A DNA stretch of 64,000 nucleotides from positions 153,123 through 217,122 of the forward strand of contig JAUSDJ010000031.1 in the NCBI GenBank assembly GCA_030650795.1. Reading direction: 5' to 3'. This DNA is from Actinomycetota bacterium (GTDB lineage: Bacteria; Actinomycetota; Actinomycetes; S36-B12). A program made the translations under genes and the position numbers. The notes under the pieces were generated by a model, which worked only from the letters and a program-made list of their open reading frames with translations, was not told the origin of the DNA and made no database searches. The number at the start of each line of letters is the position of its first letter. Position 1 is the stretch's first letter. Below are positions 31,994 through 53,676 of this stretch, piece after piece.

Positions 31994-34906
31994 ATGGGGG
32001 CCGACACGAGTGGGGCGACTTCGCCACACCTCGTCCTGCTAGTGCGCCACGCGCTCTACTTGCGGAATTACGAGTCGATGGTCCGGCAGTTGGCTGCGCA
32101 GGACTGGCGCATCACTATCGCAACACTCACGGGCTCGAGACTTGTTGACGAGGGACTCGCCAATGCCCTCGTAGCGGAATATCCGGGCATCACGCGTGCC
32201 GAGTTGCCGCGTGCCCGCGGTGTTATCCAAGATGGCCTCGAGGCTGCATATACGACGCTCGACTGGCTCAGATACTTCGATGCTCGATATGAGGGCTCTC
32301 CGGCTCTCGAAGAGCGGGCGAAGCGACGAGTCTGCCGTCCGTTGAAAGCCCTGCTGAAGATGTACAGAGTTCGCACGAACACACGACGGCGGCTCTCTGC
32401 GCAAACGCGCCTCATGCGCCTGACAGGGCCCTCGCGCCCCAGTTCCTTGGCCCTCAAGTCCCTCGCGGCCCTCAAGCCGACAGTCATGGCCGTGACTCCA
32501 TTAGTCGACATTGATGGAGGCCAACAGGCGTACGTCGATGCTGCCGCCAGGCTCGGCATCCCGTCGGCGCTCCTTGTTGCGAGTTGGGACAACCTCACCA
32601 ACAAGGGTCTTATTCACCGGATTCCGGACCGAGTTGTCGTGTGGAACGAACTGCAGGCCGACGAAGCGTTTCGCTTGCATGGGGTCCCTCGCGATCGAAT
32701 CACGACGACAGGCGCCCAGCTCTTCGATTGGCTGAGGACGACAGATCCCATTCCCGAGCGAACGGCATTCCTGCAATCACTCGGTCTCGATCCGAACAAG
32801 CGCACAATCCTCTACGTCGGCAGCAGCAGCGCTGTCGGGGCAAGGGAATCGCGCTTCCTACTTGAGCAATACATCCCATACCTTCGCGGATACTGGGACA
32901 AGACAGTCGCCCAGAGCAACCTGGTAGTCCGATACCACCCCACGAACCCGATCAAAGGCAGCTGGATTCGCGAGGTCTTCACTCAGTACTCAGCGAAGGC
33001 CGACCCGCTCGCTGGGCAACCGGTTGTGGACGACCGGACCCGTAGGCACTACCGCGCTCTACTTACTCATGCCGACGTCGTAGTCGGCATCAACACCAGC
33101 GCATTTCTCGAGGCCGCAGTCGTCGGCACGCCTGCGATTCCCATCGCATCTCGCCGCCTCAGAACCTCACAGCAGTCGGCGCCGCATTTCCGCCTCCTCG
33201 AATCCGCCGGTCTCTTCGATGAGCCCAGGTCGATCTACGGCAACCTGAATGCCATTGGTGATGTCCTCGCTGACGCCACCCACACGCAAGCTCGTCTCGA
33301 TGACTTCGTCCACAACTTCATAGATCCACCTGATGGGTCTGTTTCGGCCACTGATGCACTGACAGAGGCAATCGAGGCGGCCGAAGCCAAATCCGCCTCC
33401 ACCCCTGCACTTTCACGGAGATCATTCTCGCTCGCGCTGATCGTTCTGTTCATTCTCGGGCTGCTTCGTAAGGCCGACCGGACAGCATCCCGACTCGCTC
33501 GCCGCGCCGGGGGCTTGGTCCACCGCGTCAAGACACTGAGCATGCCCAAGGCCGCGCCTATGGTTGCTCCATCGTCGGACTCAGTACCCGCCGAGCGCCC
33601 GAGACTGACTGCCAAACAACGGGCGAAGGCGAAGAAGACCCATCATCGGCGCAAGACGGTGCTCGCGTTCAAGATCGACACCTACCGAGTCATCTGGGGT
33701 CCCAATCGATACGGGTCCGCCCGCCGGATGCTCAGAAGAGTCAACAAGTTGCTGCGCGCACGCATCCGGAGGGTGCCGGGAGTTGCAAGGCCAACAGGCA
33801 CCGCAAGCACTGGCGCTCAACGGTCAGCGTTTGCGAGCGCCTTCTACCAGAACGTCACTCGGCCAGCCCTGGCACGACGGGACACGAGAGCCGCGGACAT
33901 CCGAATGCGGGAGTTGGAAACCAGTCTCGTCAACGCGGCGGCCTTGGGCAAACCAATAGTCTTCGGGCCATGGACATCTGAAGTCGGATTCGAGTTGCTC
34001 TATTGGATTCCGTACGTGAAAACCCTCGTCGAACGCACTGCGATCGATCCCGGCCAGATCACCATCATCTCTCGCGGTGGCACGTCTGGATGGTACGGGT
34101 TGCCCGGGGCGAACTATCGAGATGTCTTCGAGATACTCGGGCCTTCTGAGTTCCACGATCGCATCGGCAACACCAACACTGGAAAGAAGCAGACGCGGTG
34201 GTCTCCGATCGAACACGAACTCGTCGACCAACTTGCGCCACGTGACGCCTTCATCGTTCATCCGCGCGAAATGTACGAGACCCTGATGCCCTTCTTCGTA
34301 GGGCGCGCGAACCTAGCTTGGCTGGACCGCCTCGTCTCAACCCAGACTGCGACCATGACGCATCCAAGCGTTGGCTCCGATGACCGACAGGACGAAGTCA
34401 CGGCTCGCCTACCAAGTCAGTACATCGCTGTCGGCCTCTACCACAGGCCTTCGTTGACCGCCGACATCAGGGATGCCCGGATTCGGGCGATCGTCGATGG
34501 AGCCAAGAGGATGGGTCTGCCCCTTGTGTCGTTGGAGACAGGGCTGATTCTTGACGACCATCGCGCTCTCGACCTTTCGACGGTCTGGATGTCGCGACCG
34601 CTACTTGGTATCGATGCCCAGAACAACCTTGAGATGCAGACACGGGTGCTTGCAGGTGCACAAGGTTTTGTCTGCACGTACGGAGGACTCAGTTACCTCG
34701 GCGCAGCACTGGGCGTGCCCACGGTGAGTCTCTTCGACGATGAGCAACGCATTCTCTGGCATCACCTTGAGGTCGCCCATCGAAGATTCAGTAGGCTCGG
34801 GGTCGTCTACGAAGTCTCCGACATCTCCAACTTGAATCCGACGTTACTCATTGACTCGTTCACCGCAAACAGCAACTCGACATCGGCCAAGGGGGAAGTC
34901 GCATGA
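31994..34906 (+). CDS. giant dual-module putative glycan polymerase A (KpsC/KpsS-like HP-motif module + GPWxSExGFE module)
   Basis: 970 aa, GGGGA SD before the ATG. N-module motifs: LLVASWDNLTNKG (nt 32582), VVRYHPTNP (nt 32936), VVVGINTSAFLEAAVVGTP, APHFRLLESAG. Central TM/basic linker. C-module motifs: GPWTSEVGFELLYWIPYV, TYGGLSYLGAALGVPTV. Paralog of 36970-39627. Confidence 0.65.
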   Translation: MGADTSGATSPHLVLLVRHALYLRNYESMVRQLAAQDWRITIATLTGSRLVDEGLANALVAEYPGITRAELPRARGVIQDGLEAAYTTLDWLRYFDARYEGSPALEERAKRRVCRPLKALLKMYRVRTNTRRRLSAQTRLMRLTGPSRPSSLALKSLAALKPTVMAVTPLVDIDGGQQAYVDAAARLGIPSALLVASWDNLTNKGLIHRIPDRVVVWNELQADEAFRLHGVPRDRITTTGAQLFDWLRTTDPIPERTAFLQSLGLDPNKRTILYVGSSSAVGARESRFLLEQYIPYLRGYWDKTVAQSNLVVRYHPTNPIKGSWIREVFTQYSAKADPLAGQPVVDDRTRRHYRALLTHADVVVGINTSAFLEAAVVGTPAIPIASRRLRTSQQSAPHFRLLESAGLFDEPRSIYGNLNAIGDVLADATHTQARLDDFVHNFIDPPDGSVSATDALTEAIEAAEAKSASTPALSRRSFSLALIVLFILGLLRKADRTASRLARRAGGLVHRVKTLSMPKAAPMVAPSSDSVPAERPRLTAKQRAKAKKTHHRRKTVLAFKIDTYRVIWGPNRYGSARRMLRRVNKLLRARIRRVPGVARPTGTASTGAQRSAFASAFYQNVTRPALARRDTRAADIRMRELETSLVNAAALGKPIVFGPWTSEVGFELLYWIPYVKTLVERTAIDPGQITIISRGGTSGWYGLPGANYRDVFEILGPSEFHDRIGNTNTGKKQTRWSPIEHELVDQLAPRDAFIVHPREMYETLMPFFVGRANLAWLDRLVSTQTATMTHPSVGSDDRQDEVTARLPSQYIAVGLYHRPSLTADIRDARIRAIVDGAKRMGLPLVSLETGLILDDHRALDLSTVWMSRPLLGIDAQNNLEMQTRVLAGAQGFVCTYGGLSYLGAALGVPTVSLFDDEQRILWHHLEVAHRRFSRLGVVYEVSDISNLNPTLLIDSFTANSNSTSAKGEVA

Positions 34907-36015
34907 TTGTCACGACCGAGGAGTTGAAAGGTCTCCGAGGGAAGGTCGCCATGGTCGATGGCTCCTTCGATCCCTTCCACGATGGGCATGTTGCCTACTT
35001 TCGTTCAGCCGCCGAACTGGGTTTCCCAGTGTTCGTCAACATCGCATCCGAGGCCTGGACATCGAGTAAGCACCTCACGCTGCTCCCACTCGATCGGCGC
35101 ATTCGCGTCATCGATGCGATTGAAGGCGTCGACTACGTCCACTCAGCCCCGATGACCACGGCTGAGGTCCTCAGGGAGCTTCAGCCAGCCATTTATGTGA
35201 AGGGTGCCGACTGGCGTGAACGCGGCCTCCCAGAGGATGAGCAGCAGCTGTGCAAGGAACTCGGCATCGAGATTGCCTATACCGAAACCGCGCTCAACTC
35301 GTCCAGCGCACTCCTGCGTTCGGCCCTGTTCGGGCAGTTCGCCTACGACGAGCTCGACAGGTTCGAGGAATTCATGCGCGATCAGAAGTCCCCGGCCGAT
35401 TCCGACTTCGACAACGACTACTTCCTCGCCGAATGGCGAAAGGGAGACAACTCCTACAACCTCGAACAACGCAGAGCGATCGAGGGCAAGCACCCCGCGG
35501 TGCTCATAGAGGCCTTCCAGCCCAAGAACGTCCTTGACGCCGGCTGCGGTCCTGGCGCTTTGATGACGCTTCTCGACGAACTGGGCGTCGAAGCTCATGG
35601 CGTGGATGTCAGCCCCAACATCCACGAGTTCGCCGAGGCTGCTGTCAAGGATAGAATCATCGTCGCCAGCATCGACGACATGCCCTATGAGGACAACACC
35701 TTTGATCTGGTCGTCTCCCGCGAGGTGCTTGAGCACATACCGGTGCGCGACTACCTCAAGGTGGTCCAGGAACTGTGCCGTGTCTCCGGGAAATACGTGT
35801 ACGTCACCACGCGATTCCACCCGAGTCCCGCATCACTCTTTGATGTGACGACGGAGTTCGAGGCCGATCCCACGCACATCTCCTTGACGGCACAGCCGTT
35901 CCTGCGGATGCTGTTCGTCCTCGCCGGCATGCGACGCCGCAAAGACCTCGAATCACAGATGGACTGGATGGACAAACGCCGAGTCCTCGTCTACGAGAAG
36001 CCACGCGATGAGTGA
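34903..36015 (+). CDS. fusion of cytidylyltransferase-like (HxGH) domain and class I SAM methyltransferase domain
   Basis: ATGA overlap with the upstream gene. N-terminus VAMVDGSFDPFHDGHVAYF (TagD/RfaE-domain-II-like). C-terminus VLDAGCGPGALMTLL ... FDLVVSREVLEHIP. Confidence 0.75.
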   Translation: MIVTTEELKGLRGKVAMVDGSFDPFHDGHVAYFRSAAELGFPVFVNIASEAWTSSKHLTLLPLDRRIRVIDAIEGVDYVHSAPMTTAEVLRELQPAIYVKGADWRERGLPEDEQQLCKELGIEIAYTETALNSSSALLRSALFGQFAYDELDRFEEFMRDQKSPADSDFDNDYFLAEWRKGDNSYNLEQRRAIEGKHPAVLIEAFQPKNVLDAGCGPGALMTLLDELGVEAHGVDVSPNIHEFAEAAVKDRIIVASIDDMPYEDNTFDLVVSREVLEHIPVRDYLKVVQELCRVSGKYVYVTTRFHPSPASLFDVTTEFEADPTHISLTAQPFLRMLFVLAGMRRRKDLESQMDWMDKRRVLVYEKPRDE

Positions 36016-36964
36016 ACTCGACACGGTCGTCGGCCCGACCTACGACTGCGTGATGACCTACCACAGCAACCCCTACACCTGCGGCATCGCCCGCTTCAAC
36101 CATCGCCTGGCCGAGACACTCGGCGTCCCGCTCGTCGACTTCAACGAGATCGGAGCTGGCCAAGTCCACGCACCTCTCGTTTCGGTGAATGCGTCAGAGG
36201 TCGGTACTGACATGGAAGGGCTCGGCGACCAACTCAATGGGGCCTTCGACCGCTACGGCCTGTTCCTGCATGACTACTGGGGTACCGAGGCGGAGATCGA
36301 CCTCATTGCCAAAGCACACGGAGTATTCGCCGCCCACAACCGCATCGGCGAAGAAATGCGGGCACACCGATCAGACGTCGTCGATGCGTTCTGCCCGGGC
36401 GCCGAACCACACCAGGAGTTCGCAGAGCCGGACCTGCGACTGCTCACCTTCGGCATGGCGCACAAGATCCGCGCCGAGCGCTACGCGCGGCTTGGTGACC
36501 TCCTCGCACGAGACGAACGAAGCTACCGGCTGGACATCTCAACTGCACTTCACGAGGGAACACGGTTCGACGAGGCCCTCTTCGAGATCTCTGACGGCAT
36601 CCGCCACGTGTTCAAGGGCCAGGTTCGCTTCCTTGGATTCTTGTCGGATGATCTTGTCTCTGAGCACGTCCGCAGGGCCGACCTACTCGTGGCGTTCTTC
36701 CCGCGCGGCGCGCGGGAGAACAACACATCCGTCCTGTCCGCGATGGCGCATGGCACGCCGGTCATCACGAACCTCGACGAGTTCTCCCCGTCGTTCATGC
36801 GCCACGGCGAGAGCGTCCTGGACATCACTCAGGTTGAGGCGATCCCGTCACGGGAGGAGCTCCGCGAAATCGGGGCTCGAGCACGGATCGCGTCCGCGCA
36901 GCACGGCTTCAAGCAACTGGGCGACCTCATCTCGGAGCGGAGCTCCGGCGGGTTCAGGGAATAG
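36008..36964 (+). CDS. GT-B glycosyltransferase (GT4-like)
   Basis: N-terminal NPYTCGIARFN motif (CGIA motif of some GT4 enzymes). C-terminus FLGFLSDDLVSEHVRRADLLVAFF ... SVLSAMAHGTPVITN. Start may be the internal Met at 36053. Confidence 0.5.
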   Translation: MSELDTVVGPTYDCVMTYHSNPYTCGIARFNHRLAETLGVPLVDFNEIGAGQVHAPLVSVNASEVGTDMEGLGDQLNGAFDRYGLFLHDYWGTEAEIDLIAKAHGVFAAHNRIGEEMRAHRSDVVDAFCPGAEPHQEFAEPDLRLLTFGMAHKIRAERYARLGDLLARDERSYRLDISTALHEGTRFDEALFEISDGIRHVFKGQVRFLGFLSDDLVSEHVRRADLLVAFFPRGARENNTSVLSAMAHGTPVITNLDEFSPSFMRHGESVLDITQVEAIPSREELREIGARARIASAQHGFKQLGDLISERSSGGFRE

Positions 36965-36969
36965 CGTCG

Positions 36970-39627
36970 ATGCGGATTCTCTTCGCCATGCTGCATCCCG
37001 GCTACCTACGCAACTACGAGTCAACGATTATTGAACTGTCTCAACGGGGACACCACATCACCGTCGACTTCGCCCAGCGGGAGAAGCAGCGCATCGCGTC
37101 ACCCTTGCAGCGTCTCAAGGAGGAGGTGCCTGGCATCGACATGCGCGATGTCGGGATCCTGTCGCGGGGCAAGGATCAATGGGCTCCGGTCGCCGATGCG
37201 CTGCGCATGGCCGTTGACGTCAACCGGTATGCAGATCCGCGATACTCACGGGCCGTCCTGCTTCGCGATCGAATGGTCGACAAATTCCAACGCCTCCCTC
37301 TTCCGGCATCTGAGGCAATCACGCAACGAATCCTTCACATGCAAAGTGATCGGGCACGGGCTCATTTTCAGCGAGCCGCCATCCGCATGGACATGGCCTT
37401 GCCCTTGAAGGAGCACCTGATAGACACCCTTGAACTCATGCAGCCCGACGTGATCGTCGTTACCCCAATCGTCAACGCAGGCTCCCGCCAGGTCGATGTT
37501 GTTCGTCACGCCCAAGCGCTCGGCATTCCCGTAGCCGTCGCAGTGGCCAGTTGGGACAACCTCTCAAACAAAGGCCTTCTGCGGTGCAACCCTGACCGGG
37601 TGTTCGTATGGAACGAGGCTCAGCGGACAGAAGCTGTGGAGATGCACGGGATCGATCCAAACACGATAGGGGTTACGGGTGCCCAACTGTTCGATCATTG
37701 GTTCACATGGAAGCCGACGCGGTCCAGAGACTCCTTTGTCCATGGATCGGGCCTTGACCCGAGCAAGCCGTACTTCCTTTGGTTGGCCTCGTCACCGTTC
37801 ATCGGTGGTGACCGTGAGGTCGAGTATGTGATGCGTTGGGTAAGCCGCCTGCGGACGCAGCCTGGCGCGATCGCGGACGTGGGCGTGATGATCCGCCCGC
37901 ATCCCCAGTCGACAGCGCCCTGGACGGGAGTGGACCCCTCAACGCTAGGTAATACCGTCATCTTCCCGCGGTTGGGAGCAAATCCGATCGACAGCGATAG
38001 CCGTCAGGACTTCTTCGAGTCGATCTACTACTCGGCCGGAGTAGTAGGGATCAACTCGAGTGCGATGATCGAGTCCGCGATCGTCGGCAAAGCTGTCTTC
38101 ACAGTCACAGCCCCAGAATTCGCCGAAGTACAGGGCGGAACAATCCATTTCTCCCACCTTGAGGATGCTCTTCTTACTCGAGCCGACTCTGACGATGACC
38201 TGTTCCGGCTCCTCAGCGATTCAATGGAGCACCCCGAGGCGATGGCCGACAAGAATCGGCTCTTCCTCGAGTCCTTCATCCGCCCGCACGGCCTGGATGT
38301 ATCGGCTACAGAGCGGCTAGCCTCCGAGATTGAGGACCTTGGGCGTCGGCCAAGGAAAACGCCCTACTACGGGCGTCGCGGGGACTCCATGCGCCGCGTC
38401 GTGCTGCACGGTGTGCGCCTCGCCATCGCCGCCAAGGCGCGCCAGCAGCAAGCGCCCTTCGCCGGCCTTCCCTCGGCTCGGCCGATTCTCCACGTAAGTG
38501 GTCGGTCATCGATTTCAGAGAGCGGGGCCCGCGTGTCCAAAAAGAACCCATCGTGGCAGGAACGCGCTGTCGACACCACACCTCATGCTGTGACTGCTGA
38601 CGATGTGTTCGAGTCGGAAGGGCTCGCGGAGGGCGAAGAAGATCTCTCCTTGGTCCGCATGGTCATCGATCCGTCGAAACTCGATCAGGAGATTGCCAAC
38701 CAGCTGAAACGGATCGCCAAGAGCGACTCACCGATCATTGTCGGACCCTGGACATCCGAACTCGGCTTCGAATTGCTGTACTGGGTGCCGTTCTTGCGCT
38801 GGGCGCTGGGCAACTATGGAATCGATCCGGGGCGCGTGGTCTCAGTGACTCGGGGGGGCGCCGGCCCAGTCTTCTACGCCGGAATCGCCTCCAAACACGT
38901 CGAGATATTCGACCTCATGGGACACGAGCAATTCAGAGACGAACTCACCAAGCGCTGGGCAACCCGGGGCGGGCAGAAACAATCCGAATGGAGCCCGCTG
39001 GACACAGAGCTGATCGCCCGAGTCGAGCAGCATTTAGGGATCGGATCATTCGACATCATCCATCCATCATCGATGTACAGGCTCTTCGCGTACTTCTGGC
39101 GGGATCGAATGCCGCTCCAAATGCTTCGGGAGCGACTGGTCTTCGCCCCCTTCGCAGTACCCGAGCTTCCCGAAGAACTGGCGTCTCGACTGCCGGAAGA
39201 GTTCGATGCCGTCCGCTTCTATTTCCGGCCGTCGTTTCCCGACACGCCAGCCAATCGCGAGTTGATCCAGCGGCTGGTCAGCCGGCGACGCAATGAGCGT
39301 CCAGTTGTCTTGCTGTCGACCGGAATCAGGTTCGATGACCACGAGGAGCACACCTTCGGCCAGGATCAGAACGTCATCCACATTAACGACGCGATGACAC
39401 CCGAGAACAATCTGGCTGTCCAAGCCGCCGTCATCGCGCGCGCTTCTAGCGTGTTCACCACCTACGGTGGACTCGCCTACCTGCCCCCGTACTACCGCGT
39501 GCCGGTCTATTCGTTCCACTCTGAAGCAGAGCATCTGCTAGACAACCATCAGACGGTGGCGAACCTACAAAGCCGTCTACTGAGAACACGCAGCTATACG
39601 CTCTCGGCTGACGCGCAGTTGTGGTGA
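36970..39627 (+). CDS. giant dual-module putative glycan polymerase B (paralog of 31994-34906)
   Basis: 885 aa. MRILFAMLHPGYLRNYES, VAVASWDNLSNKG, VMIRPHPQST, VVGINSSAMIESAIVGK. C-module GPWTSELGFELLYWVPFL, TTYGGLAYLPPYYRVPV. Confidence 0.65.
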   Translation: MRILFAMLHPGYLRNYESTIIELSQRGHHITVDFAQREKQRIASPLQRLKEEVPGIDMRDVGILSRGKDQWAPVADALRMAVDVNRYADPRYSRAVLLRDRMVDKFQRLPLPASEAITQRILHMQSDRARAHFQRAAIRMDMALPLKEHLIDTLELMQPDVIVVTPIVNAGSRQVDVVRHAQALGIPVAVAVASWDNLSNKGLLRCNPDRVFVWNEAQRTEAVEMHGIDPNTIGVTGAQLFDHWFTWKPTRSRDSFVHGSGLDPSKPYFLWLASSPFIGGDREVEYVMRWVSRLRTQPGAIADVGVMIRPHPQSTAPWTGVDPSTLGNTVIFPRLGANPIDSDSRQDFFESIYYSAGVVGINSSAMIESAIVGKAVFTVTAPEFAEVQGGTIHFSHLEDALLTRADSDDDLFRLLSDSMEHPEAMADKNRLFLESFIRPHGLDVSATERLASEIEDLGRRPRKTPYYGRRGDSMRRVVLHGVRLAIAAKARQQQAPFAGLPSARPILHVSGRSSISESGARVSKKNPSWQERAVDTTPHAVTADDVFESEGLAEGEEDLSLVRMVIDPSKLDQEIANQLKRIAKSDSPIIVGPWTSELGFELLYWVPFLRWALGNYGIDPGRVVSVTRGGAGPVFYAGIASKHVEIFDLMGHEQFRDELTKRWATRGGQKQSEWSPLDTELIARVEQHLGIGSFDIIHPSSMYRLFAYFWRDRMPLQMLRERLVFAPFAVPELPEELASRLPEEFDAVRFYFRPSFPDTPANRELIQRLVSRRRNERPVVLLSTGIRFDDHEEHTFGQDQNVIHINDAMTPENNLAVQAAVIARASSVFTTYGGLAYLPPYYRVPVYSFHSEAEHLLDNHQTVANLQSRLLRTRSYTLSADAQLW

Positions 39628-39697
39628 TGCGAATGACGTCGACCCAACGACAGGTCACCGAGAATCCTCTGCCCAGACCCTTCGGACACCGAACAAG

Positions 39698-41466: not shown

Positions 41467-42371
41467 ACGACCTGGACGACCTCAAGCGTGAAAAGCGTCG
41501 GCTCAAGAAGACACCAGCATGTGACTCCTGCGGGCGGCGAGACATGCCCGCCGAGCTTCTAAACCGCAAGGGCACGTGGGATTCAATGGTGGCCATCGGG
41601 CAGAAGTTTGCCGTCACGTCTAGCGATGTTCCACTCATCGTTCGCATCGGTGATCGCGGCACAGGCCGAACAGAATTCGTCAAGGGCGGCGCGGGCAGCG
41701 AGAAACTTGCATTCGCCGCAGGTGTCGCAGGACTGGATCTACCGATTCGGACCCTCATCGATGTCGGGGCCGGCATTGGCAGCGTCAGCATCCACGCGCT
41801 GCGCCAAGGCGTCGCCGAGAGCGCTTTCGCGATCGAGCCCGACGATGACGCGCTCAGGCTCCTGCGGGCGAACATCGCGCTCAACGGCGTCGAGGACCGC
41901 ATGCGCGTCAGCCCCCAAGCCCTCGGAGGGATCAACGATGAATTCGGATTCCTCGTCAGGGGGAAGGACTCCTCCGCCTCCCGGATCTTTCCTTCCTTCT
42001 CCACCTACGCCAGCCGACCGGAAGCAGTAAGGGTGGCCTTGAACTCGCTCGATGAAGTGGTGCCGGATCTTGACCCCGCGCGCGACCTCGTTTGGATCGA
42101 TACGGGCGGCTCCGAAGGGGCCGTACTGCAGGGAGCACTCAAGTGTATTGCGCTCGGAGTGCCAGTGGTCCTGCAATTCACCCCCCGGGCTATCCACCAG
42201 TACGGCAACTACTCTGCTGTCGCTGACGCCGTAGCCGCCTACGGGGCCTGGTTCGATGTCGACGCGGCGGACACCACTCCACATTCGCTCTCGTACCTGA
42301 GCGACCATTATCAGAGTTCCGCCGTCGCCCCCACCGGCGTGACCCGCACCATTCTGCTGGCGAAGCCCTGA
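41463..42371 (+). CDS. FkbM family methyltransferase
   Basis: LIDVGAGIGSVSIHALRQG ... AIEPDDDALRLLRANIALNGVEDRM ... WIDTGGSEGAVLQGA, the typical FkbM layout. ATGA overlap upstream. Confidence 0.7.
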   Translation: MNDLDDLKREKRRLKKTPACDSCGRRDMPAELLNRKGTWDSMVAIGQKFAVTSSDVPLIVRIGDRGTGRTEFVKGGAGSEKLAFAAGVAGLDLPIRTLIDVGAGIGSVSIHALRQGVAESAFAIEPDDDALRLLRANIALNGVEDRMRVSPQALGGINDEFGFLVRGKDSSASRIFPSFSTYASRPEAVRVALNSLDEVVPDLDPARDLVWIDTGGSEGAVLQGALKCIALGVPVVLQFTPRAIHQYGNYSAVADAVAAYGAWFDVDAADTTPHSLSYLSDHYQSSAVAPTGVTRTILLAKP

Positions 42372-42782
42372 GTCGCAGTCCAGAAGCTCGGCGGAGAATA
42401 GAGACGACCGCGCTCGGGCAGCAAGCGTGCCACTGTGAATGAAGAGCTTCCGAAACACCATCGCCCGTCGCTCCTCGACGGTGGTCAGTCTCCGCACGGT
42501 GCGTTGGCCGATACCAGCTCCTGACCATCGATAACTCAACCTACGTTGCCTACCACGACGCGCCCGGTGATCGGCGCAGACCTTCGGCTTGGATAGCGAG
42601 GCGATCAAGTTCCGCACGATCGTCGGCGTCGATCACACGACCAACGTGTCATCGGGCGCTCGCAGTCCCGCGTTCCTGGCAGCGGCTGGTCTCCGTCGTG
42701 TGGAGAGTTCGCGCACGATGACGACGATCTCGTCAGAAGACGTCAAGTCCTACACCGGTTTCGGGCTACCCCGTCTCCGAAC

Positions 42783-44360
42783 TCAAAGTCCGTACTGTCC
42801 TTCCAGCAGATCGTTGCTGTCCCGAACAAAGGCGTCGATCGCAAGCGCCGGACTCGCCGACTGAGGGCTGGCGCCGATCCTTCGCACTGGTCCGGCGACA
42901 AGTTCCGTCGCGAGTTCCGCAATGGCTGCGACCGTACGCTCGCGGGCATCGGGTGGGCCTGCCGGATTTCCCAGGAAGTCCCGAACAAATGCCGCCGAGG
43001 AAGGATCCTCTGTTCGGCTTTCAATGAGGCTGGATACTCGATGCGGCAATTCGGCAATTGAGGCCGTACCCATCCCCGAGTCCAGCAGGTACTGGAAGTG
43101 GGGAGCGTTGCGCTGCCAGACATCGAACTTCCCATCCACAAGGATTATTGTCGACTTGCCCGAGAGCGCAGCCTCAAGTATGGCGCTGGAGTTCACTCCG
43201 ATCACCACATCGGCGGCCATGATGGCGTCCGCCAGGTTCTCGATCTGACCGCGGACGTCGACCGTGACGTCGGGTGCGAGATCCTGGAAACCCTTCGCCA
43301 CCTCCGGAGTCATTGGGGGGTGCTTCGGATGCTTACGCATCACTACCCGAAGACGCACACCCCCATGCTGGGCCGCACCGATGAGCTCCTGGCAGGCCGC
43401 GAGGAGCACCTCCGGCTCGCCTTGGCCCATGCTGCCTGAAGATCCGAGAATCAACACTGTGGCGTCGTACGGGTCAGCGGGCCTCGCATCCCGGACAGCG
43501 TCCAAGTACCGACGATGTGCCTCGCTGAACCGGTAGGCGCCGCCGATTCTGTATGGCACGTCTAGACCGTGCAGTCTGGCCGCTTCCTCAGCCAAGGTGG
43601 CATTCCAATACACCGCACCGTCCGGGGAGACGCTGGTCGTTCCCTTGGTTGTGCCGTTGTCCCAACTGTAAGGAATCATGACCACGGGTGTGCCCCGCCT
43701 TCGGGCCGCTAGTGCAACCCGAACATCCATAACATGGGTCTCTGTCGGGAAGTACAGCTTGGACACCACCACGCAGTCGGCACCGCTGAATTCGAGAACG
43801 TGCTCCAACCCTGGATCCTGCGGAGCGTGCCATTCGGCCAAGCGCCGCAATTGCCGCACTCCCGCTACGTGATCACGGGATGCCTTGTCCCCCAACAAGC
43901 GATTGAGCCTCTCAAACAAGGCGTCCAAGTTCTGCAGGTCAATCTCGGCACTTGACGCCAGAGTCGGGCGAAGCCTCAGCCGAAGCGCCTTCGACAGGCG
44001 CCGCCGGAAGGTCTCGCGGTATGCCCGAGACATGGCGAGGCTGGGATGGACCTTGAACAGGGAGGACGCCGTGAGATGGGTGAGGTAGGAATAGGCGTTG
44101 ATCAGGCCTTCATCGGCGCGAGAAGACTCGTCAAGCGCGTACGAGCCATCGTGTTCGCCGGAGTAAAATTCCCTTCCCGCCGAAACCGCCGCGATTCTTG
44201 CCGCGCTGAGTGTGAGCGGGCTCCCCTCCGGAAGGACCATGCGTATGTGCTCCACGTTCCGGCCATCAACGCTGCTGACGCCATGGAGCCAGCGAAGGTA
44301 GTTCACAGACTTCGACGCACCCGCCGAGTTGGCCCAAAGGATCCTCATGGGCTGTCCCAC
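42783..44360 (-). CDS. stand-alone KpsC/KpsS-like HP-motif module (paralog of the N-modules of the giant proteins)
   Basis: VVMIPYSWDNGTTKG, VVMRKHPKHP, VVIGVNSSAILEAALSGKS and APHFQYLLDSG align with the N-modules of 31994 and 36970. An alternative ATG lies at 44348. Confidence 0.6.
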   Translation of the reverse strand: MGQPMRILWANSAGASKSVNYLRWLHGVSSVDGRNVEHIRMVLPEGSPLTLSAARIAAVSAGREFYSGEHDGSYALDESSRADEGLINAYSYLTHLTASSLFKVHPSLAMSRAYRETFRRRLSKALRLRLRPTLASSAEIDLQNLDALFERLNRLLGDKASRDHVAGVRQLRRLAEWHAPQDPGLEHVLEFSGADCVVVSKLYFPTETHVMDVRVALAARRRGTPVVMIPYSWDNGTTKGTTSVSPDGAVYWNATLAEEAARLHGLDVPYRIGGAYRFSEAHRRYLDAVRDARPADPYDATVLILGSSGSMGQGEPEVLLAACQELIGAAQHGGVRLRVVMRKHPKHPPMTPEVAKGFQDLAPDVTVDVRGQIENLADAIMAADVVIGVNSSAILEAALSGKSTIILVDGKFDVWQRNAPHFQYLLDSGMGTASIAELPHRVSSLIESRTEDPSSAAFVRDFLGNPAGPPDARERTVAAIAELATELVAGPVRRIGASPQSASPALAIDAFVRDSNDLLEGQYGL

Positions 44361-44512
44361 GCCCCCTCCCCTTCAGCAGACGAACACGACTTGATATGTC
44401 CGACTCGAGCTCGACTGCGGCAGCATAACGTCGTCCAAACTCCACCCCGCTGATCGCACCGAATATGATTCCTCGGGCGGATGACACGAAGTCGTAGCGA
44501 AACGGAGGGCAC

Positions 44513-45655
44513 ATGAAAGTCGTGCTCCACCCTGGCATGCCCAAAGCTGGCAGCACGACGATCCAAACCTACTTCCGAGCCCACGAGGACGAGCTCCGCT
44601 CCAGTGGCATTGGGTACATCCAGCCAGAGGGAGTCACTTCTGGGCTCCCAGCACAGGTCATCTCAAAGTTGGACGACCTCCTGGATGTCGATAATCCCAC
44701 TCATGTGGTCGTCTCCCACGAATCCCTTATCGAAATCGGCTCGGACACGCTTTACCCATTTCTCGACGAACTCCGTTCCCGCGACGTGACTATCGAGGTC
44801 GTCATCATCGTACGGCCGCTAGGCGAGTGGGCGGTGAGCAAAGAGAAACAGCGACTGAGGTCCCTGAAGGGGACCGCCTCTCCCAAGCGACCTGCCGTGG
44901 AGAAGTGGTTCAGCACCTGGATGGCGCCAGAGGCCGAGGATCGAATCGGGAGTCCCATCCGATTAGTGGACCTCCACGCGGCAGAAGGTCTGATTCCCGC
45001 ATTCATGAATTCGGCTGGCCTGCCACTGCCAGACAGCTGGCCTCAGGTCACATCGCTTGCCGTCAATCGGTCACCAGTTGAGCGGGATCTTGCCATCTAC
45101 CTCGTTCTCAATGACGCGATTCGCTGGGCTCAAGAGGAGTGGCCCGAGGACGAGCGAACATCGAACGGAAGGCATCTCCGAGAGATTCGTCAATTCATAG
45201 CGGAGATCCTGGCGTCCGGGGACCACCACCGCACGCCCCGCGAGCTCGGTCTCGATGAGGACCTGCGCAGCCGCCTTCTCGTGCACTTCTTCGATGACCT
45301 CGAAGCGACCCTTTCGGACCGACTGCAACAGCAGAAACCCGAAGCCGCCGAGCGAGTCCGCAAGCTCACCCAGGAGGCGCTTACTATCCTGCGCGCAGGA
45401 CCTAGGTCCGAACGCTATGTCAACGCTCGGGTGAAGAGTTTCCTGGCCGGTCTGGCCACACCCATAGCGGAATCCGAGGCCAGGTTCCGCACATGGACGG
45501 TGCAGAATCACGCGACTGAATTAGCCGCACTCATGCTCCCCGAACCGGTCAAGAAGAAGGGCGGAAAGCCAATGGCCCAAGTAGCCAAGGAAGGACCCGC
45601 GGCCGATTTGCGACATCGCCCAGCCTCGCAGAAGACTGGCTCCGCTAGCGCCTGA
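44513..45655 (+). CDS. sulfotransferase-fold-like P-loop protein
   Basis: MKVVLHPGMPKAGSTTIQ (PKxGST 5'-PSB-like loop), VVVSHESL, IIVRPLGEWAVSKEKQ (3'-PB-like RxxxxxxS). Paralog at 55342-56286. Confidence 0.4.
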   Translation: MKVVLHPGMPKAGSTTIQTYFRAHEDELRSSGIGYIQPEGVTSGLPAQVISKLDDLLDVDNPTHVVVSHESLIEIGSDTLYPFLDELRSRDVTIEVVIIVRPLGEWAVSKEKQRLRSLKGTASPKRPAVEKWFSTWMAPEAEDRIGSPIRLVDLHAAEGLIPAFMNSAGLPLPDSWPQVTSLAVNRSPVERDLAIYLVLNDAIRWAQEEWPEDERTSNGRHLREIRQFIAEILASGDHHRTPRELGLDEDLRSRLLVHFFDDLEATLSDRLQQQKPEAAERVRKLTQEALTILRAGPRSERYVNARVKSFLAGLATPIAESEARFRTWTVQNHATELAALMLPEPVKKKGGKPMAQVAKEGPAADLRHRPASQKTGSASA

Positions 45656-46361
45656 CTGTGATGTACTCGGACCGCACGTCGCCCGACGTCTTGCTGATCC
45701 GCTGAGCATCGACCGTCACATCTGTGAAGCCGTGCCGCCCGAGCAATTCACGGATCTCAAGCACGTTGGCGCCCGCAACCTCGATTAGGCAGGACTCGAC
45801 GCCCTTCAGAGTGGCTGAAGCTCCGCGCAGCACCTCGACCTCGTGACCCTCAACGTCGATCTTGAGGTACCGGGGGGCGGGCAGCCCGGACGCCACCATT
45901 TCATCAACCGTCGTGATAGGAACCTCGACGATCTGATCGTTGGCCTTCGTCCGCGCCTTCGTAGACGCGACCCTGGCCTTTCCGTAGTAGCTCTCGTGAC
46001 TGCCCACGAACAACTGTGCGATGCCAGGTTGCGAACCCACCGCTTTCGGCACGACGAGGACCTGATCTTCGAAACCGTTCTGGCGGATATTGGCGACCAA
46101 TGCCTTGCGCACATATGGATTCGGCTCGAAGGCGACAAGCCGGGATGGGTCGCCGCTCGCCTTCGCCGCGAGCAGCGTGAACTCGCCTACGTTGGCCCCG
46201 ATATCCCAGATCGGGCCTGCCTGCGCCGAACAGGCCAGGAACCAGTCGACGGTGAACGACTCCTTGGGTGATCGCAGATACGGTTCGCCGTCAGGGATCG
46301 TGGGTCGAATCATGTAGAACTTGTGATTTCCCACGCTGACGACAGCGAACTTCCTGCTCAT
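45645..46361 (-). CDS. FkbM family methyltransferase
   Basis: IWDIGANVGEFTLLAAK ... AFEPNPYVRKALVANIRQNGFEDQV ... LKIDVEGHEVEVLRGA. Start placed at MSRKF (46361), preceded by GGTGG. The ORF track extension to 46616 overlaps the upstream gene. Confidence 0.7.
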   Translation of the reverse strand: MSRKFAVVSVGNHKFYMIRPTIPDGEPYLRSPKESFTVDWFLACSAQAGPIWDIGANVGEFTLLAAKASGDPSRLVAFEPNPYVRKALVANIRQNGFEDQVLVVPKAVGSQPGIAQLFVGSHESYYGKARVASTKARTKANDQIVEVPITTVDEMVASGLPAPRYLKIDVEGHEVEVLRGASATLKGVESCLIEVAGANVLEIRELLGRHGFTDVTVDAQRISKTSGDVRSEYITVRR

Positions 46362-46456
46362 CGAACCACCCCACCCTGCACGTCCATAGGACGTCGCGAC
46401 GAACCGAACGCTATCCGACCGACCCCGGGTTAACGCGGCCGGAGCGCCACGGTCGG

Positions 46457-47428
46457 TCACGCAATCGACTGTATCGAGAACGGCAGCCCCGGATCTCGCT
46501 TCACGGTCTTGGTGTTTGCCGAGGCCAACGCCTCGGCCAACACCGAGAAGTGGCGGCTGAAAACGATGGCAGGGTTGCGGTAGTACGTCATCACAGGTGT
46601 TCGCGTATATAGGCATAGGTATGAGAACCCCCCATAGGTACCCTTAAAGGCTCGGGCACTTGCCAGCAACTGGATCTGGTCGGCGATGTTCGTACGCTCG
46701 CTCGCCGTGTCAGCAGTAGGCAGGTCGAGATTCGCGCAGATCTGGGAGAATGGTTCATCAACGCCGAGGTTCTTCGACGGTTTCGCGAACGGCCGCGAGT
46801 CTTCGAGTGTGTGCCGATTGACGATCGCCAGGACAGGTCCTGCGTCGCGAGCCTGTTTGCAGATCTCACTCACGCGTCGCATGTTTTCGGTGGTGGCTTT
46901 CATCTGCGCCCCGAACCAGAACTTCAGAATCACGTTATCCGTCCGCTCGACACGGACGACAGCCGCTCGCGGAAAGGTAAGTGCCCGGGATCCAAAGCGC
47001 CGGATCGCAACGTGCATGAGATCGGCGCTTACGACGTGACTGCCAGCCAGACCCGCTGATGAGATTAGTTGCCACTCCCAGTCACTTGTGCCCGTCTTGT
47101 GGTTCTTTGCCCGCAATCCGCCATCAATCAGACGCTGGGTATCTCGCGCGACATATTCTTCCGGGCTCACTACATCAAGGACGTCCACGTATTCGAACGG
47201 GATGCCGATAGCACGGTAGAGATCTGCAGTCCCGCCTCGGCTCATCACCACAACGCGATGGCCGTCGAGTGCTCCTGACGTGGCGAGTGTAGTTATTTGA
47301 GGTATCCAATAGAGGGTCTCGAATCCGACCTCGCCGAGAAAGGGGCCGAACACCACAGTCGCGGCCTTCGCTTGAGGAATTCCGAATAGAGCGGTCAACT
47401 GAGAGGCGACGGACGGGTACTTCATCAT
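46457..47428 (-). CDS. stand-alone GPxxGExGFE module protein (paralog of the C-modules of the giant proteins)
   Basis: VVFGPFLGEVGFETLYWIPQI, VVVMSRGGTADLY and FKGTYGGFSYLCLYTRTPV align with the C-terminal modules of 31994 and 36970. Confidence 0.55.
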   Translation of the reverse strand: MMKYPSVASQLTALFGIPQAKAATVVFGPFLGEVGFETLYWIPQITTLATSGALDGHRVVVMSRGGTADLYRAIGIPFEYVDVLDVVSPEEYVARDTQRLIDGGLRAKNHKTGTSDWEWQLISSAGLAGSHVVSADLMHVAIRRFGSRALTFPRAAVVRVERTDNVILKFWFGAQMKATTENMRRVSEICKQARDAGPVLAIVNRHTLEDSRPFAKPSKNLGVDEPFSQICANLDLPTADTASERTNIADQIQLLASARAFKGTYGGFSYLCLYTRTPVMTYYRNPAIVFSRHFSVLAEALASANTKTVKRDPGLPFSIQSIA

Positions 47429-53657: not shown

Positions 53658-53676
53658 GTCAGATACCGTCAAGCAC

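What the first reader, a model, noticed from the sequence alone, without database searches (positions are those of the whole stretch)
31994..47428. Family of uncharacterised two-module giant enzymes plus stand-alone copies of each module (putative ulosonic-acid polymerases)
Seen, the two giant proteins: 31994-34906 (970 aa) and 36970-39627 (885 aa) are collinear paralogs.

Seen, module 1 motifs:
- (V/A)ASWDNL(T/S)NKG
- R-x-HP (VVRYHPTNP / VMIRPHPQST)
- VVGIN(T/S)SA(F/M)(L/I)E(A/S)A(V/I)VG

Seen, module 2 motifs:
- GPWTSE(V/L)GFELLYW(I/V)P
- SRGG / TRGG
- TYGGL(S/A)YL

Seen, stand-alone copies: module 1 recurs alone at 42783-44360 (YSWDNGTTKG, MRKHPKHP, VIGVNSSAILEAALSG). A more distant copy is at 53677-55335 (VSWDAQIHF, IRAHPGEV, GTKVGVEALAQG). 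Module 2 recurs alone at 46457-47428 (GPFLGEVGFETLYWIP, TYGGFSYL).

Established: an HP motif in a GT-B fold is typical of CMP-sialic-acid and CMP-Kdo dependent transferases, that is bacterial sialyltransferase families and KpsC/KpsS.

Inference: these are dual-domain polymerases that alternate a CMP-activated ulosonic acid with a second sugar. Module 2 is a fold or family I cannot name, and it may be undescribed.
Basis: partly seen in the sequence, partly recalled or inferred. Interest (0 to 1): 0.85.

Follow-up and report, generated by a model that had tools for sequence, protein, structure and literature searches.

The report
Two-module glycan-building enzymes, unnamed families
Two very large proteins in an actinobacterial cell-surface sugar cluster each fuse two ordinary-fold glycosyltransferase modules from widespread families that no database names, and gene neighbourhoods suggest, but do not prove, that one module adds a sialic-acid-like acidic sugar.

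Summary
G1 (31994-34906) and G2 (36970-39627) are collinear paralogs, and every quoted motif is present. Module 1 (M1) recurs alone at 42783-44360 and module 2 (M2) alone at 46457-47428.

Both modules are canonical GT-B glycosyltransferase folds, not new folds, but neither reaches any Pfam or NCBIfam threshold.

- **M1:** it is a remote branch of the TagB/TagF-like superfamily, which includes the Tannerella nonulosonic-acid transferases. It is not a KpsC-type enzyme, because it lacks the QXXXD aspartate and has a normal N-domain. M1 genes sit next to NeuB, NeuC or CMP-synthetase genes in 24 of 40 full-length related loci from many phyla. Stand-alone M1 homologs lie inside neuB-neuC-neuA operons.
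- **M2:** its nearest structures are GT9 heptosyltransferases, at only 11-16% identity.
- **ORF 53677-55335:** this is a genuine Capsule_synth (KpsC/KpsS1-like) protein, distantly homologous to M1. Its "SWD" is the KpsC nucleophile site, not M1's SWD.

Most likely reading (about 0.5): G1 and G2 alternately add a CMP-activated ulosonic acid (M1) and a second sugar (M2), as KrkA does. The donors and any polymerase activity are inferred only. This is a new variant of a known kind.

The parts
31994..34906 (+). G1, a 970-aa two-module protein. M1 is aa 1-480 (31994-33433). The linker is aa ~480-635 and holds a hydrophobic segment at aa 472-495 and a basic stretch. M2 is aa 635-970 (33896-34903).
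   Evidence: Translation. Identical to NCBI MAG protein Q7L55_10235. Paralogy with G2. AF2 models: M1 pLDDT 89.5, M2 pLDDT 86.6. Hydrophobic segment.
36970..39627 (+). G2, an 885-aa two-module paralog. M1 is 36970-38409 and M2 is 38665-39624.
42783..44360 (-). Stand-alone M1 (525 aa). Its N-terminal ~215 aa are divergent.
   Evidence: Weak NF046086 and TIGR04396 hits.
46457..47428 (-). Stand-alone M2 (323 aa).
   Evidence: Listed as P0167 = Q7L55_10285.
53677..55335 (+). Capsule_synth-type (KpsC/KpsS/KpsS1-like) transferase. It is the last gene of the ulosonic-acid operon and is distantly homologous to M1.
   Evidence: Pfam PF05159 at 36.9 bits, above the cut-off of 20. PDB KpsC 6mgd at E 0.016, with its N-V-S-W-D aligned on Q-V-E-S-D165, the nucleophile motif (PMC10148158). 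hhalign to M1 gives 96%.
34903..36015 (+). Fusion of a cytidylyl/adenylyl-transferase-like domain (PF01467) with a class-I methyltransferase. Its start overlaps the G1 stop.
   Evidence: The best NCBIfam match is rfaE_dom_II at 61.5 bits, below its cut-off. Among related loci it travels with M2.
36008..36964 (+). A 318-aa protein with a GT4-type C-terminal half. It is a conserved partner of the nucleotidyltransferase fusion.
   Evidence: Pfam Glyco_trans_1_4 at 27.6 bits. Co-occurs with the PF01467 gene in 13 of 18 loci that hold it, p 2.5e-8.
47679..53657 (+). Ulosonic-acid cassette: NeuB-like synthase (47679-48764), SDR (48765-49556), aldehyde dehydrogenase (49550-51007), PseF-like CMP-sugar synthetase (50935-51765) and a transketolase-like enzyme (51627-53657).
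   Evidence: The same gene order is found in many phyla.
41463..42371 (+). FkbM-family methyltransferase.
   Evidence: TIGR01444 at 72 bits.
45645..46616 (-). Second FkbM-family methyltransferase. The listed start overlaps the stand-alone M2 gene, so the true start is probably further downstream.
   Evidence: FkbM genes occur in 19 of 80 related loci, and some are fused to M1.
39698..41466 (+). An unnamed membrane protein with about 5-6 hydrophobic segments (39698-40816), followed by a HAD/NT5C-like phosphatase (40813-41466). Both are in the G1-G2 operon.
31030..31839 (-). GT2 glycosyltransferase, divergent from G1.
29206..30978 (-). DUF4012 membrane-anchored protein at the left edge of the cluster. 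It is syntenic in a related genome.
44513..45655 (+). A 380-aa protein with an N-terminal PKxGST loop. It is a paralog of 55342-56286(-).
   Evidence: paralogy E 2e-13. No Pfam hit even at E<=1.
55342..56286 (-). A 314-aa paralog of 44513-45655 at the right edge of the cluster.

Best explanation
The 27-kb cluster (29.2-56.3 kb) of this actinobacterial MAG makes an acidic cell-surface glycopolymer.

The NeuB-SDR-ALDH-CMP-synthetase-transketolase operon makes a CMP-activated 3-deoxy-2-ulosonic acid. Its exact structure is unknown. No aminotransferase or acetyltransferase genes were found, so it is probably not a Pse/Leg-type diamino sugar.

M1 is a canonical GT-B enzyme of the TagB/TagF-like, nonulosonic-acid-transferase-like superfamily. 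It binds a cytidine-nucleotide donor in its C-terminal domain through three elements: R313-x-H315-P316 after C-beta2, N367-T-S after C-beta4, and E373 on the following helix. It most probably transfers the ulosonic acid. The invariant D199 (SWD) or H229 of the N-terminal domain would act on the acceptor.

M2 is a GT-B enzyme whose nearest structures are GT9. It probably adds a second sugar from a nucleoside-diphosphate donor. That donor may be the product of the adjacent RfaE-domain-II-like nucleotidyltransferase-methyltransferase fusion. Invariant E29/E33 after N-beta1 would serve as base, and TYGG after C-beta4 would bind the donor.

Fusing M1 to M2 in G1 and G2 lets one polypeptide add the two residues alternately. 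It would act as a bifunctional elongating enzyme or polymerase, like KrkA or the meningococcal W/Y capsule polymerases. The stand-alone M1 and M2, the KpsC-like transferase and the GT2 would prime, branch or cap the chain. The methyltransferases would decorate or terminate it.

Shown: homology, folds, motifs, architectures and gene neighbourhoods. Inferred: donors, acceptors, catalytic residues and processivity.
For: **Fold and family**
- Both modules give confident GT-B models.
- All 16 M1 domains tested hit NF046086, the T. forsythia Pse/Leg-derivative transferase family. This is their top NCBIfam match, best E 1.1e-7 (PMC5420450).
- M1 is an end-to-end homolog (hhalign 99.9%, E 4e-35, 425 columns) of a stand-alone family found in Rhizobium, Polaromonas, Herbaspirillum and a Rickettsiales MAG.
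- That family lies directly beside or overlapping neuB / Epimerase_2 (NeuC) / CTP_transf_3 genes in all four loci examined.

**Neighbourhood of M1 proper**
- In the 40 species-representative loci with full +-10 kb flanks, 24 hold NeuB, a CMP-synthetase or NeuC. 24 hold an ABC transporter.
- Single M1 genes are operonic with the same NeuB-SDR-ALDH-CMP-synthetase-transketolase cassette in Alphaproteobacteria, Gemmatimonadales, Methyloversatilis and Vicinamibacteraceae.
- M1 is specifically, though distantly, related to the cluster's Capsule_synth protein (controls).

**Modularity typical of glycan polymerases**
- Among the 338 retrieved proteins in which an M1 or M2 domain was detected: M2 alone 178, M1-M1 93, M1-M2 61, M2-M2 2. 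One each of M1-M1-M1, M1-M1-M2, M1-M2-M1 and M2-M1-M2.

**Other support**
- Within cassette-bearing loci, the PF01467 fusion and its GT4-like partner travel with M2: counts 9/2/2/5.
- Precedent exists for a one-protein Kdo+ribose polymerase (PMC12887879).
Against: - No biochemical data exist for any member.
- Foldseek's top 50 PDB matches for M1 hold no sialyltransferase, KpsC, WbbB or TagF structure.
- All named-family hits for M1 are far below threshold: at most 28 bits against a cut-off of 200.
- 16 of the 40 full-length loci show no ulosonic-acid marker within 10 kb.
- A Capsule_synth transferase that could itself be the ulosonic-acid transferase is present in the same operons.
- The superfamily also contains CDP-glycerol phosphotransferases.
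- No ABC transporter or other recognised exporter is in the window.
- The locus statistics ignore phylogenetic non-independence.
Confidence: 0.5

Rival explanations
1. M1 is a TagF-like phosphotransferase. It would transfer a polyol-phosphate or sugar-phosphate from a CDP-activated donor made by the adjacent PF01467 nucleotidyltransferase. G1 and G2 would then be teichoic-acid-like polymerases (a TagF-like module plus a glycosyltransferase module), making a phosphodiester-linked polymer.
For: - Full-length M1 homologs in the bridging family reach the Pfam gathering score of PF04464 Glyphos_transf. Scores are 25.6-43.8 bits against a cut-off of 22.1, covering profile positions 134-366 of 367 (homology).
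- A PF01467 cytidylyltransferase-like gene directly follows G1 here and in syntenic loci.
- The Tannerella transferases were themselves noted to resemble TagB (PMC5420450).
Against: - No M1 domain hits PF04464 at E<=0.1 (0 of 16).
- The PF01467 domain scores 61.5 bits to heptose-1-P adenylyltransferase domain II but only 21 bits to glycerol-3-P cytidylyltransferase.
- Seven cassette loci lack M2. Five of them also lack both the PF01467 gene and its GT4-like partner, yet they have M1 operonic with NeuB and a CMP-synthetase.
- The bridging family sits inside neuB-neuC-neuA operons, with no CDP-polyol genes in view.
Confidence: 0.2
2. G1 and G2 are bifunctional but not polymerising. Each module would add one residue once, as an adaptor, branch or cap. 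This would resemble the terminating Kdo module of WbbB, or KpsC building only a short linker. The bulk polymer would be made by other enzymes.
For: - The cluster holds nine glycosyltransferase-type modules (3 M1, 3 M2, Capsule_synth, GT4-like, GT2), more than a disaccharide repeat needs.
- M1-FkbM methyltransferase fusions in related loci look like chain-terminating assemblies.
- No exporter is encoded next to G1 or G2.
Against: - Tandem and mixed arrays of M1 and M2 next to ABC transporters in 24 of 40 loci resemble known polymerases.
- Many Vicinamibacterales loci hold several M1 and M2 modules, and the marker scan picked out no other transferase type there. That scan had no GT2 or general GT4 marker, so other transferases may be present.
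Confidence: 0.2
3. M1 is an ordinary NDP-sugar glycosyltransferase (GT4/GT28-like). Its nearness to ulosonic-acid genes would only reflect that both belong to surface-glycan loci. The Capsule_synth protein would be the sole ulosonic-acid transferase.
For: - The best structural neighbours are UDP-GlcNAc 2-epimerases, MurG, MshA and MGD1.
- 6 of 16 M1 domains weakly hit the GT4 N-terminal domain.
- Capsule_synth genes accompany the cassette.
Against: - M1 has R-x-HP plus N-T-S in place of the glycine-rich diphosphate loop.
- Profile comparison links M1 specifically to Capsule_synth-type and PF04464-type families, which use cytidine-nucleotide donors.
- At least two cassette loci (L050, L058) have M1 but no Capsule_synth gene in view.
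Confidence: 0.1

Closest known systems
Tannerella forsythia Pse/Leg-derivative transferases Tanf_01245 / TFUB4_00887 (NCBIfam NF046086, 'BFO_1060 family')
   Same: GT-B type with an HP motif and a noted TagB-like relationship. The genes lie next to CMP-nonulosonic-acid biosynthesis genes. This is the top NCBIfam hit for all 16 M1 domains tested (PMC5420450).
   Different: Scores are at most 28 bits against a family cut-off of 200. Those enzymes are single-module proteins of about 445 aa acting in protein O-glycan assembly. Their activity is itself supported only genetically.
TagB/TagF CDP-glycerol glycerophosphotransferases (Pfam PF04464) and TagF-like capsule polymerases
   Same: Same superfamily, reached through the bridging family. 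They use a cytidine-nucleotide donor. TagF-like modules fused to a glycosyltransferase module form polymerases (from my own knowledge, not checked here).
   Different: M1 itself does not reach the Pfam model. Its neighbourhood points to CMP-ulosonic acids rather than CDP-polyols.
Retaining ulosonic-acid transferases KpsC/KpsS (GT107), WbbB (GT99), KrkA (GT140) and KpsS1 (GT118)
   Same: They share the HP motif and a CMP-ulosonic-acid donor. KpsC has tandem modules, and KrkA is a two-module Kdo+ribose polymerase (PMC10148158, PMC12887879). The window's ORF 53677-55335 does belong to this group, and M1 is distantly homologous to it.
   Different: M1 has a full canonical N-terminal Rossmann domain. 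It has Ser, not Asp, at the QXXXD nucleophile position. It gives no Capsule_synth hit. A double-displacement mechanism of that type is therefore unlikely.
GT9 heptosyltransferases WaaC, WaaF and TibC (comparison for M2)
   Same: These are the nearest solved structures: Foldseek E 2.6e-5 to 1e-4. The TYGG...P region aligns with the GT9 donor-binding loop.
   Different: Identity is only 11-16% and TM-scores are 0.40-0.46. Only 1 of 15 M2 domains touches PF01075, and that hit is below its cut-off. The N-terminal GPWxSExGFExLYWxP signature is specific to M2.
Bifunctional capsule polymerases that alternate a sialic acid with a hexose (N. meningitidis W/Y SiaD)
   Same: One polypeptide with two glycosyltransferase modules, one using a CMP-sugar and one an NDP-sugar (from my own knowledge, not checked here).
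   Different: The glycosyltransferase families are different, and no sequence relationship was detected here.

Membership tests
GT107/GT99/GT140/GT118 retaining ulosonic-acid transferases (tested for M1) | Match to Pfam Capsule_synth (PF05159) above the gathering score | tested here: not met
   0 of 16 M1 domains hit at E<=0.1. By contrast, ORF 53677-55335 scores 36.9 bits against a cut-off of 20.
GT107/GT99/GT140/GT118 retaining ulosonic-acid transferases (tested for M1) | Invariant QXXXD motif carrying the Asp nucleophile after the first strand of the C-terminal domain | tested here: not met
   The hhalign alignment puts the Capsule_synth N-V-S-W-D on M1 'Y-V-G-S-S-S', where S277 is invariant. 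That Asp aligns with D165 of KpsC 6mgd (PMC10148158).
GT107/GT99/GT140/GT118 retaining ulosonic-acid transferases (tested for M1) | [quoted passage not shown] | tested here: not met
   The M1 model has a seven-stranded N-domain. It matches ordinary GT-B structures (epimerases, MurG) with target-normalised TM-scores up to 0.67. The criterion comes from PMC10148158 and PMC12887879.
GT107/GT99/GT140/GT118 retaining ulosonic-acid transferases (tested for M1) | HP motif in the C-terminal domain | tested here: met
   R313 and P316 are invariant, and H315 is conserved in at least 90% of sequences. The motif aligns with the HP of the Capsule_synth protein.
TagB/TagF Glyphos_transf (PF04464) (tested for M1) | Match to PF04464 above the gathering score (22.1 bits) | tested here: not met
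   0 of 16 M1 domains hit. Full-length homologs in the bridging family do reach it, at 25.6-43.8 bits. M1 is therefore a superfamily relative, not a family member.
TagB/TagF Glyphos_transf (PF04464) (tested for M1) | A CDP-glycerol or CDP-ribitol supply gene in the locus | tested here: inconclusive
   A PF01467 domain is present. It scores higher to rfaE domain II (61.5 bits) than to glycerol-3-P cytidylyltransferase (21 bits), and both scores are below their cut-offs.
NF046086 BFO_1060 (Tannerella nonulosonic-acid transferases) (tested for M1) | HMM score above the curated cut-off (200 bits) | tested here: not met
   All 16 of 16 domains hit, but at no more than ~28 bits.
NF046086 BFO_1060 / bacterial sialyltransferases (tested for M1) | D/E-D/E-G motif together with the HP motif | tested here: inconclusive
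   HP is present. No D/E-D/E-G was found among the invariant columns. No reference sequence was available for alignment.
Bacterial sialyltransferase folds (GT38/42/52/80) (tested for M1) | Structural match to a solved sialyltransferase | tested here: not met
GT9 heptosyltransferases (tested for M2) | Match to Pfam PF01075 or the NCBIfam heptosyltransferase models above cut-off | tested here: not met
   1 of 15 domains scores 19 bits against a cut-off of 22. NCBIfam scores are 12-14 bits against cut-offs of 170-437.
GT9 heptosyltransferases (tested for M2) | GT-B fold closest to WaaC, WaaF or TibC | tested here: met
   Foldseek ranks 1-7 are GT9 structures, E 2.6e-5 to 1.4e-4.
GT9 heptosyltransferases (tested for M2) | ADP-heptose as donor | not testable with these tools
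   There is only the circumstantial co-occurrence with an rfaE-domain-II-like gene.
Multi-module glycan polymerases of ABC-transporter-dependent pathways | Two or more glycosyltransferase modules in one polypeptide | tested here: met
Multi-module glycan polymerases of ABC-transporter-dependent pathways | ABC transporter (ABC2 permease plus ATPase) in the locus | tested here: inconclusive
   None is in the window. One is present in 24 of 40 full-length related loci.
Multi-module glycan polymerases of ABC-transporter-dependent pathways | Iterative, alternating addition of two residues | not testable with these tools
   This needs an enzyme assay.

The most novel reading that the evidence does not exclude
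M1 and M2 would found two new glycosyltransferase families. Their fusions would be single-protein polymerases that build alternating [ulosonic acid - sugar] polymers ('teichulosonic-acid-like') in Actinomycetota, Acidobacteriota, Alphaproteobacteria, Planctomycetota and others. The conserved NeuB-SDR-ALDH-CMP-synthetase-transketolase cassette that feeds them would make a ulosonic acid (possibly a dicarboxylic 'ulosaric' acid) whose pathway has not been described.
Probability: 0.3. Interest if true: 0.72.

Novelty: new variant of a known kind. Interest (0 to 1): 0.55.

Why it matters
**Scale.** M2 is found in 1,654 protein clusters at 50% identity. None carries a functional name or a Pfam domain, apart from two automatic labels.

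**Where they sit.** They lie in surface-glycan loci of abundant but poorly studied soil and water bacteria, such as Vicinamibacterales.

**What would follow.**
- If M1 transfers nonulosonic or other ulosonic acids, it would be a large new source of enzymes for a class of transferases that is scarce and sought after.
- It would also make testable which enzyme builds ulosonic-acid polymers in Gram-positive walls.
- The accompanying five-gene cassette points to an undescribed acidic sugar.

**Limits.** The fold, the modular logic and the general chemistry all have clear precedents (KrkA, KpsC, SiaD W/Y, TagF-like polymerases). This extends a known theme and is not a new principle.

Tried and rejected
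1. Sequence searches of the PDB with G1, stand-alone M2 and both profiles gave nothing useful. There was no hit for G1. M2 gave only WaaC at E 1.1, and the M1 hits were chance matches.

3. I briefly considered that the PF01467 fusion replaces the CMP-synthetase, because 10 of 13 loci with both NeuB and PF01467 showed no CTP_transf_3 gene. I rejected this as an artefact. In those loci NeuB-SDR-ALDH lies at the edge of the +-10 kb stretch, and the cassette order puts the CMP-synthetase just beyond it.

5. tblastn of M2 and of stand-alone M1 against plasmids found nothing. M1 found only one record.

6. I tested whether the two PKxGST proteins are sulfotransferases. There was no Pfam hit at E<=1, and only the loop matched real sulfotransferases of locus L084 (E 0.1-0.45). 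This stays unresolved.

7. Literature searches for the NeuB + transketolase + aldehyde dehydrogenase cassette found nothing. A search on heptulosaric acid returned no paper that describes it.

8. I could not check whether the Streptomyces coelicolor teichulosonic-acid cluster (SCO4873-4882; PMC13011467) contains an M1 homolog, because no sequence was available.

Full report
**Source and setting.** G1 is identical to a hypothetical protein (Q7L55_10235) of an Actinomycetota MAG. The finding lies in a glycan cluster of about 27 kb (29.2-56.3 kb), bounded by purN/purH on the left and a DUF6350 gene on the right.

The genes form four units.
- **Operon A**, with overlapping stops and starts:
  - G1 (31994)
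  - a PF01467 nucleotidyltransferase fused to a methyltransferase (34903)
  - a GT4-like 318-aa protein (36008)
  - G2 (36970)
  - a membrane protein (39698)
  - a HAD-like phosphatase (40813)
  - an FkbM methyltransferase (41463)
- **Stand-alone M1** on the minus strand (42783-44360).
- **A minus-strand pair:** stand-alone M2 (46457-47428) and a second FkbM methyltransferase.
- **Operon B**, divergent from that pair:
  - a NeuB-like synthase
  - an SDR
  - an aldehyde dehydrogenase
  - a PseF-like CMP-sugar synthetase
  - a transketolase-like enzyme
  - a Capsule_synth protein (47679-55335)

No ABC transporter or other recognised exporter is in the window.

**Check of the observation.** All quoted motifs are present.
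- G1 and G2 align in two collinear blocks, E 1e-49 and 2e-41.
- Stand-alone M1 and M2 match G1 at E 1e-23 and 2e-19.
- In alignments with outside homologs the motifs are invariant or nearly invariant columns.

The family is large. At least 597 stretches in species-representative genomes carry the M1 motif and were confirmed as relatives of M1. 1,654 clusters at 50% identity match the M2 profile, 844 of them at E<=1e-30.

An M1 or M2 domain was detected in 338 of the retrieved proteins. Their architectures were M2 alone 178, M1-M1 93, M1-M2 61 and M2-M2 2. There was one each of M1-M1-M1, M1-M1-M2, M1-M2-M1 and M2-M1-M2.

Carriers include Vicinamibacterales, Alphaproteobacteria (Tistlia consotensis), Methyloversatilis thermotolerans, Svornostia abyssi, Planctomycetota, Gemmatimonadales, Nitrospinota and Acidimicrobiia. 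Apart from two automatic labels ('ADP-heptose:LPS heptosyltransferase', 'predicted glycosyltransferase'), all are 'hypothetical'. Almost none has a precomputed Pfam domain.

**What M2 is.**
- The AlphaFold model built from a 15-sequence alignment is confident: pLDDT 86.6, pTM 0.87.
- Foldseek against the PDB puts GT9 heptosyltransferases first (WaaF 1psw at 2.6e-5, then 3tov, TibC and WaaC), followed by generic GT-B enzymes. Identity is 11-16% and TM-scores are 0.40-0.46.
- By sequence, only 1 of 15 M2 domains touches PF01075, and that hit is below threshold. The NCBIfam heptosyltransferase hits are 12-14 bits. The PDB profile search gives WaaC at E 1.1.

M2 is therefore a GT-B glycosyltransferase of an unnamed family with GT9 as nearest neighbour. 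It is not a new fold.

Its invariant residues sit where GT-B enzymes place their base and their donor-binding loops: E29 and E33 after N-beta1, D220-D221-H222 after C-beta2, and T261-Y-G-G after C-beta4. The assignment of roles to these residues is inference.

**What M1 is.**
- The model is confident: pLDDT 89.5, pTM 0.89. It is a canonical GT-B with a helical insertion at aa 77-160.
- The top 50 Foldseek matches are UDP-GlcNAc 2-epimerases (including NeuC), MurG, MshA, MGD1 and plant C-glycosyltransferases. None is a KpsC, WbbB, TagF or sialyltransferase structure.
- Pfam gives only weak hits: GT4 N-domain in 6 of 16 domains, Epimerase_2 in 2 of 16, and nothing for Capsule_synth or Glyphos_transf.
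- NCBIfam is consistent but weak. All 16 domains have NF046086 as their top hit, best E 1.1e-7, about 28 bits against a cut-off of 200. NF046086 is the Tannerella forsythia Pse/Leg-derivative transferase family. Those enzymes carry HP and D/E-D/E-G motifs and were noted to resemble TagB (PMC5420450).

Three profile comparisons place M1 more firmly.
1. M1 against the family of ORF 53677-55335 gives 96% probability, E 4.9e-9, 246 columns. The controls were M1 against M2 at 0.7% and M2 against that family at 2%.
2. A tblastn hit on a Rhizobium sp. WL3 plasmid led to a stand-alone family of 450-490 aa. That family aligns with M1 end to end: 99.9% probability, E 4e-35, 425 columns. It shares SWD(Q/N)xT(T/N)KG and R-x-HP.
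3. Members of that bridging family reach the Pfam gathering score of PF04464 (TagB/TagF). Scores are 25.6-43.8 bits against 22.1, over profile positions 134-366 of 367.

M1 is thus a remote branch of the TagB/TagF-like superfamily, whose known members use cytidine-nucleotide donors. It is distantly related to Capsule_synth enzymes.

**Why M1 is not a KpsC-type enzyme.** Retaining Kdo/Pse transferases (GT99, GT107, GT118, GT140) have two defining features. They have a strongly reduced N-domain, and they carry a QXXXD aspartate nucleophile (PMC10148158, PMC12887879).

ORF 53677-55335 passes the Capsule_synth threshold. Its N-V-S-W-D aligns on Q-V-E-S-D165 of KpsC 6mgd, and D165 is the nucleophile named in PMC10148158. 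In the M1 alignment that position is Y-V-G-S-S-S, with S277 invariant.

The HP and G-x-(N/T)...E equivalences are correct.

**Gene neighbourhood.** I scanned 76 species-representative loci and 4 metagenomic loci, each with +-10 kb, using markers taken from the window and from L002/L003.
- Among the 40 representative loci with full flanks, 24 hold NeuB, a CTP_transf_3 CMP-synthetase or a NeuC-like epimerase. 24 hold an ABC transporter, and 30 hold M2.
- A block recurs across phyla: (M1-M2, M2) - PF01467 fusion - GT4-like - (epimerase/dehydratase) - NeuB - SDR - ALDH - CMP-synthetase - transketolase - Capsule_synth.
- Single M1 genes directly follow or flank the five-gene cassette in L006, L037, L045, L050 and L058.
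- The bridging-family M1 homologs lie beside neuB, neuC and neuA in Rhizobium WL3, Polaromonas YR568, Herbaspirillum and a Rickettsiales MAG. In two of these the genes overlap.
- Within the 18 cassette-bearing loci, the PF01467 fusion or its GT4-like partner accompanies M2. Counts are both 9, M2 only 2, partner only 2, neither 5; p 0.049, uncorrected for relatedness. This suggests that these two genes serve the M2 step and not ulosonic-acid synthesis.

**Mechanism proposed.** Shown: two GT-B modules per protein, cytidine-nucleotide-type motifs in M1, and the association with a CMP-ulosonic-acid pathway. Inferred: the rest.
- M1 transfers the CMP-activated ulosonic acid.
  - H315 of the HP motif and N367-T-S handle the phosphate, and E373 binds the ribose.
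  - D199 or H229 acts on the acceptor.
- M2 adds a second sugar from a nucleoside-diphosphate donor.
- The fusion alternates the two additions.

KrkA of E. coli K13 is a direct precedent: a Kdo-transferase module plus a ribosyltransferase module that iteratively add both sugars (PMC12887879).

**Rival explanations.**
- **TagF-like phosphotransfer.** This is kept alive by the PF04464 link and the neighbouring PF01467 gene.
  - It is weakened because the PF01467 domain looks more like heptose-1-P adenylyltransferase than like TagD.
  - Five of the seven cassette loci without M2 also lack the PF01467 gene and its partner.
- **Non-processive bifunctional transferase.**
- **Ordinary NDP-sugar transferase.**

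**Verdict.**
  - The link to ulosonic acid rests on context and remote homology, not on KpsC or sialyltransferase similarity.
  - M2 is an unnamed family with a known fold.
- These are new, large sequence families within a known enzyme logic.

Noticed in passing
window 47679-53657; also L006, L008, L028, L037, L045, L050, L058: A five-gene cassette (NeuB-like synthase, SDR, aldehyde dehydrogenase, PseF-like CMP-synthetase, transketolase-like enzyme) keeps the same order in Actinomycetota, Alphaproteobacteria, Betaproteobacteria, Gemmatimonadales, Acidobacteriota and Ca. Auribacter. It has no aminotransferase or acetyltransferase. Its sugar product is unknown, and I found no paper describing it.
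   Followed up: partly
window 44513-45655 (+) and 55342-56286 (-): Two paralogous proteins (E 2e-13) carry an N-terminal G-x-PK-x-GST loop like the PAPS-binding loop of sulfotransferases. They have no Pfam match even at E<=1. A related locus (L084) has two genuine sulfotransferase genes next to its M1 homolog.
   Followed up: partly
L028 9974-12295; L002 (829-aa ORF); L049 (752-aa ORF): An M1 module is fused to an FkbM-type methyltransferase. This could be a chain-terminating or chain-modifying assembly.
   Followed up: no
window 33407-33478 (G1 aa 472-495): G1, but not G2, has a hydrophobic segment of about 20 residues followed by a very basic stretch between its two modules. It may be a membrane anchor. 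A true transmembrane pass would put the two nucleotide-sugar-dependent modules on opposite sides of the membrane, which seems unlikely.
   Followed up: no
window 1889-12277: A second polysaccharide locus holds an NTP_transferase, an HldE-like protein with reversed domain order (PF01467 then PfkB, 4061-5503), a zinc alcohol dehydrogenase, a GT4, a UDP-glucose/GDP-mannose dehydrogenase, and a fusion of a low-molecular-weight phosphatase with a Wzc-like ATPase (10841-12277).
   Followed up: no
window 13806-18715 and 21729-23438: There are two ODP-type metallo-beta-lactamase-fold proteins fused to GGDEF domains. One has a receiver domain and lies directly upstream of a 960-aa GT2 protein with HEAT repeats. 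This looks like a c-di-GMP-linked exopolysaccharide synthase. A GGDEF-EAL protein lies at 59932-61221.
   Followed up: no
window 58382-59278: An ORF with an AbiEi antitoxin C-terminal domain lies just right of the glycan cluster. The related locus L001 has an AbiEii/DUF6036-type gene near its cluster.
   Followed up: no
L001 (ERZ25074234 contig, 3.46 Mb): A related genome keeps the order DUF4012, G1, nucleotidyltransferase-methyltransferase, GT4-like, G2, membrane protein. G1 identity there is 53%, so the two-giant arrangement is conserved and not a recent duplication.
   Followed up: partly
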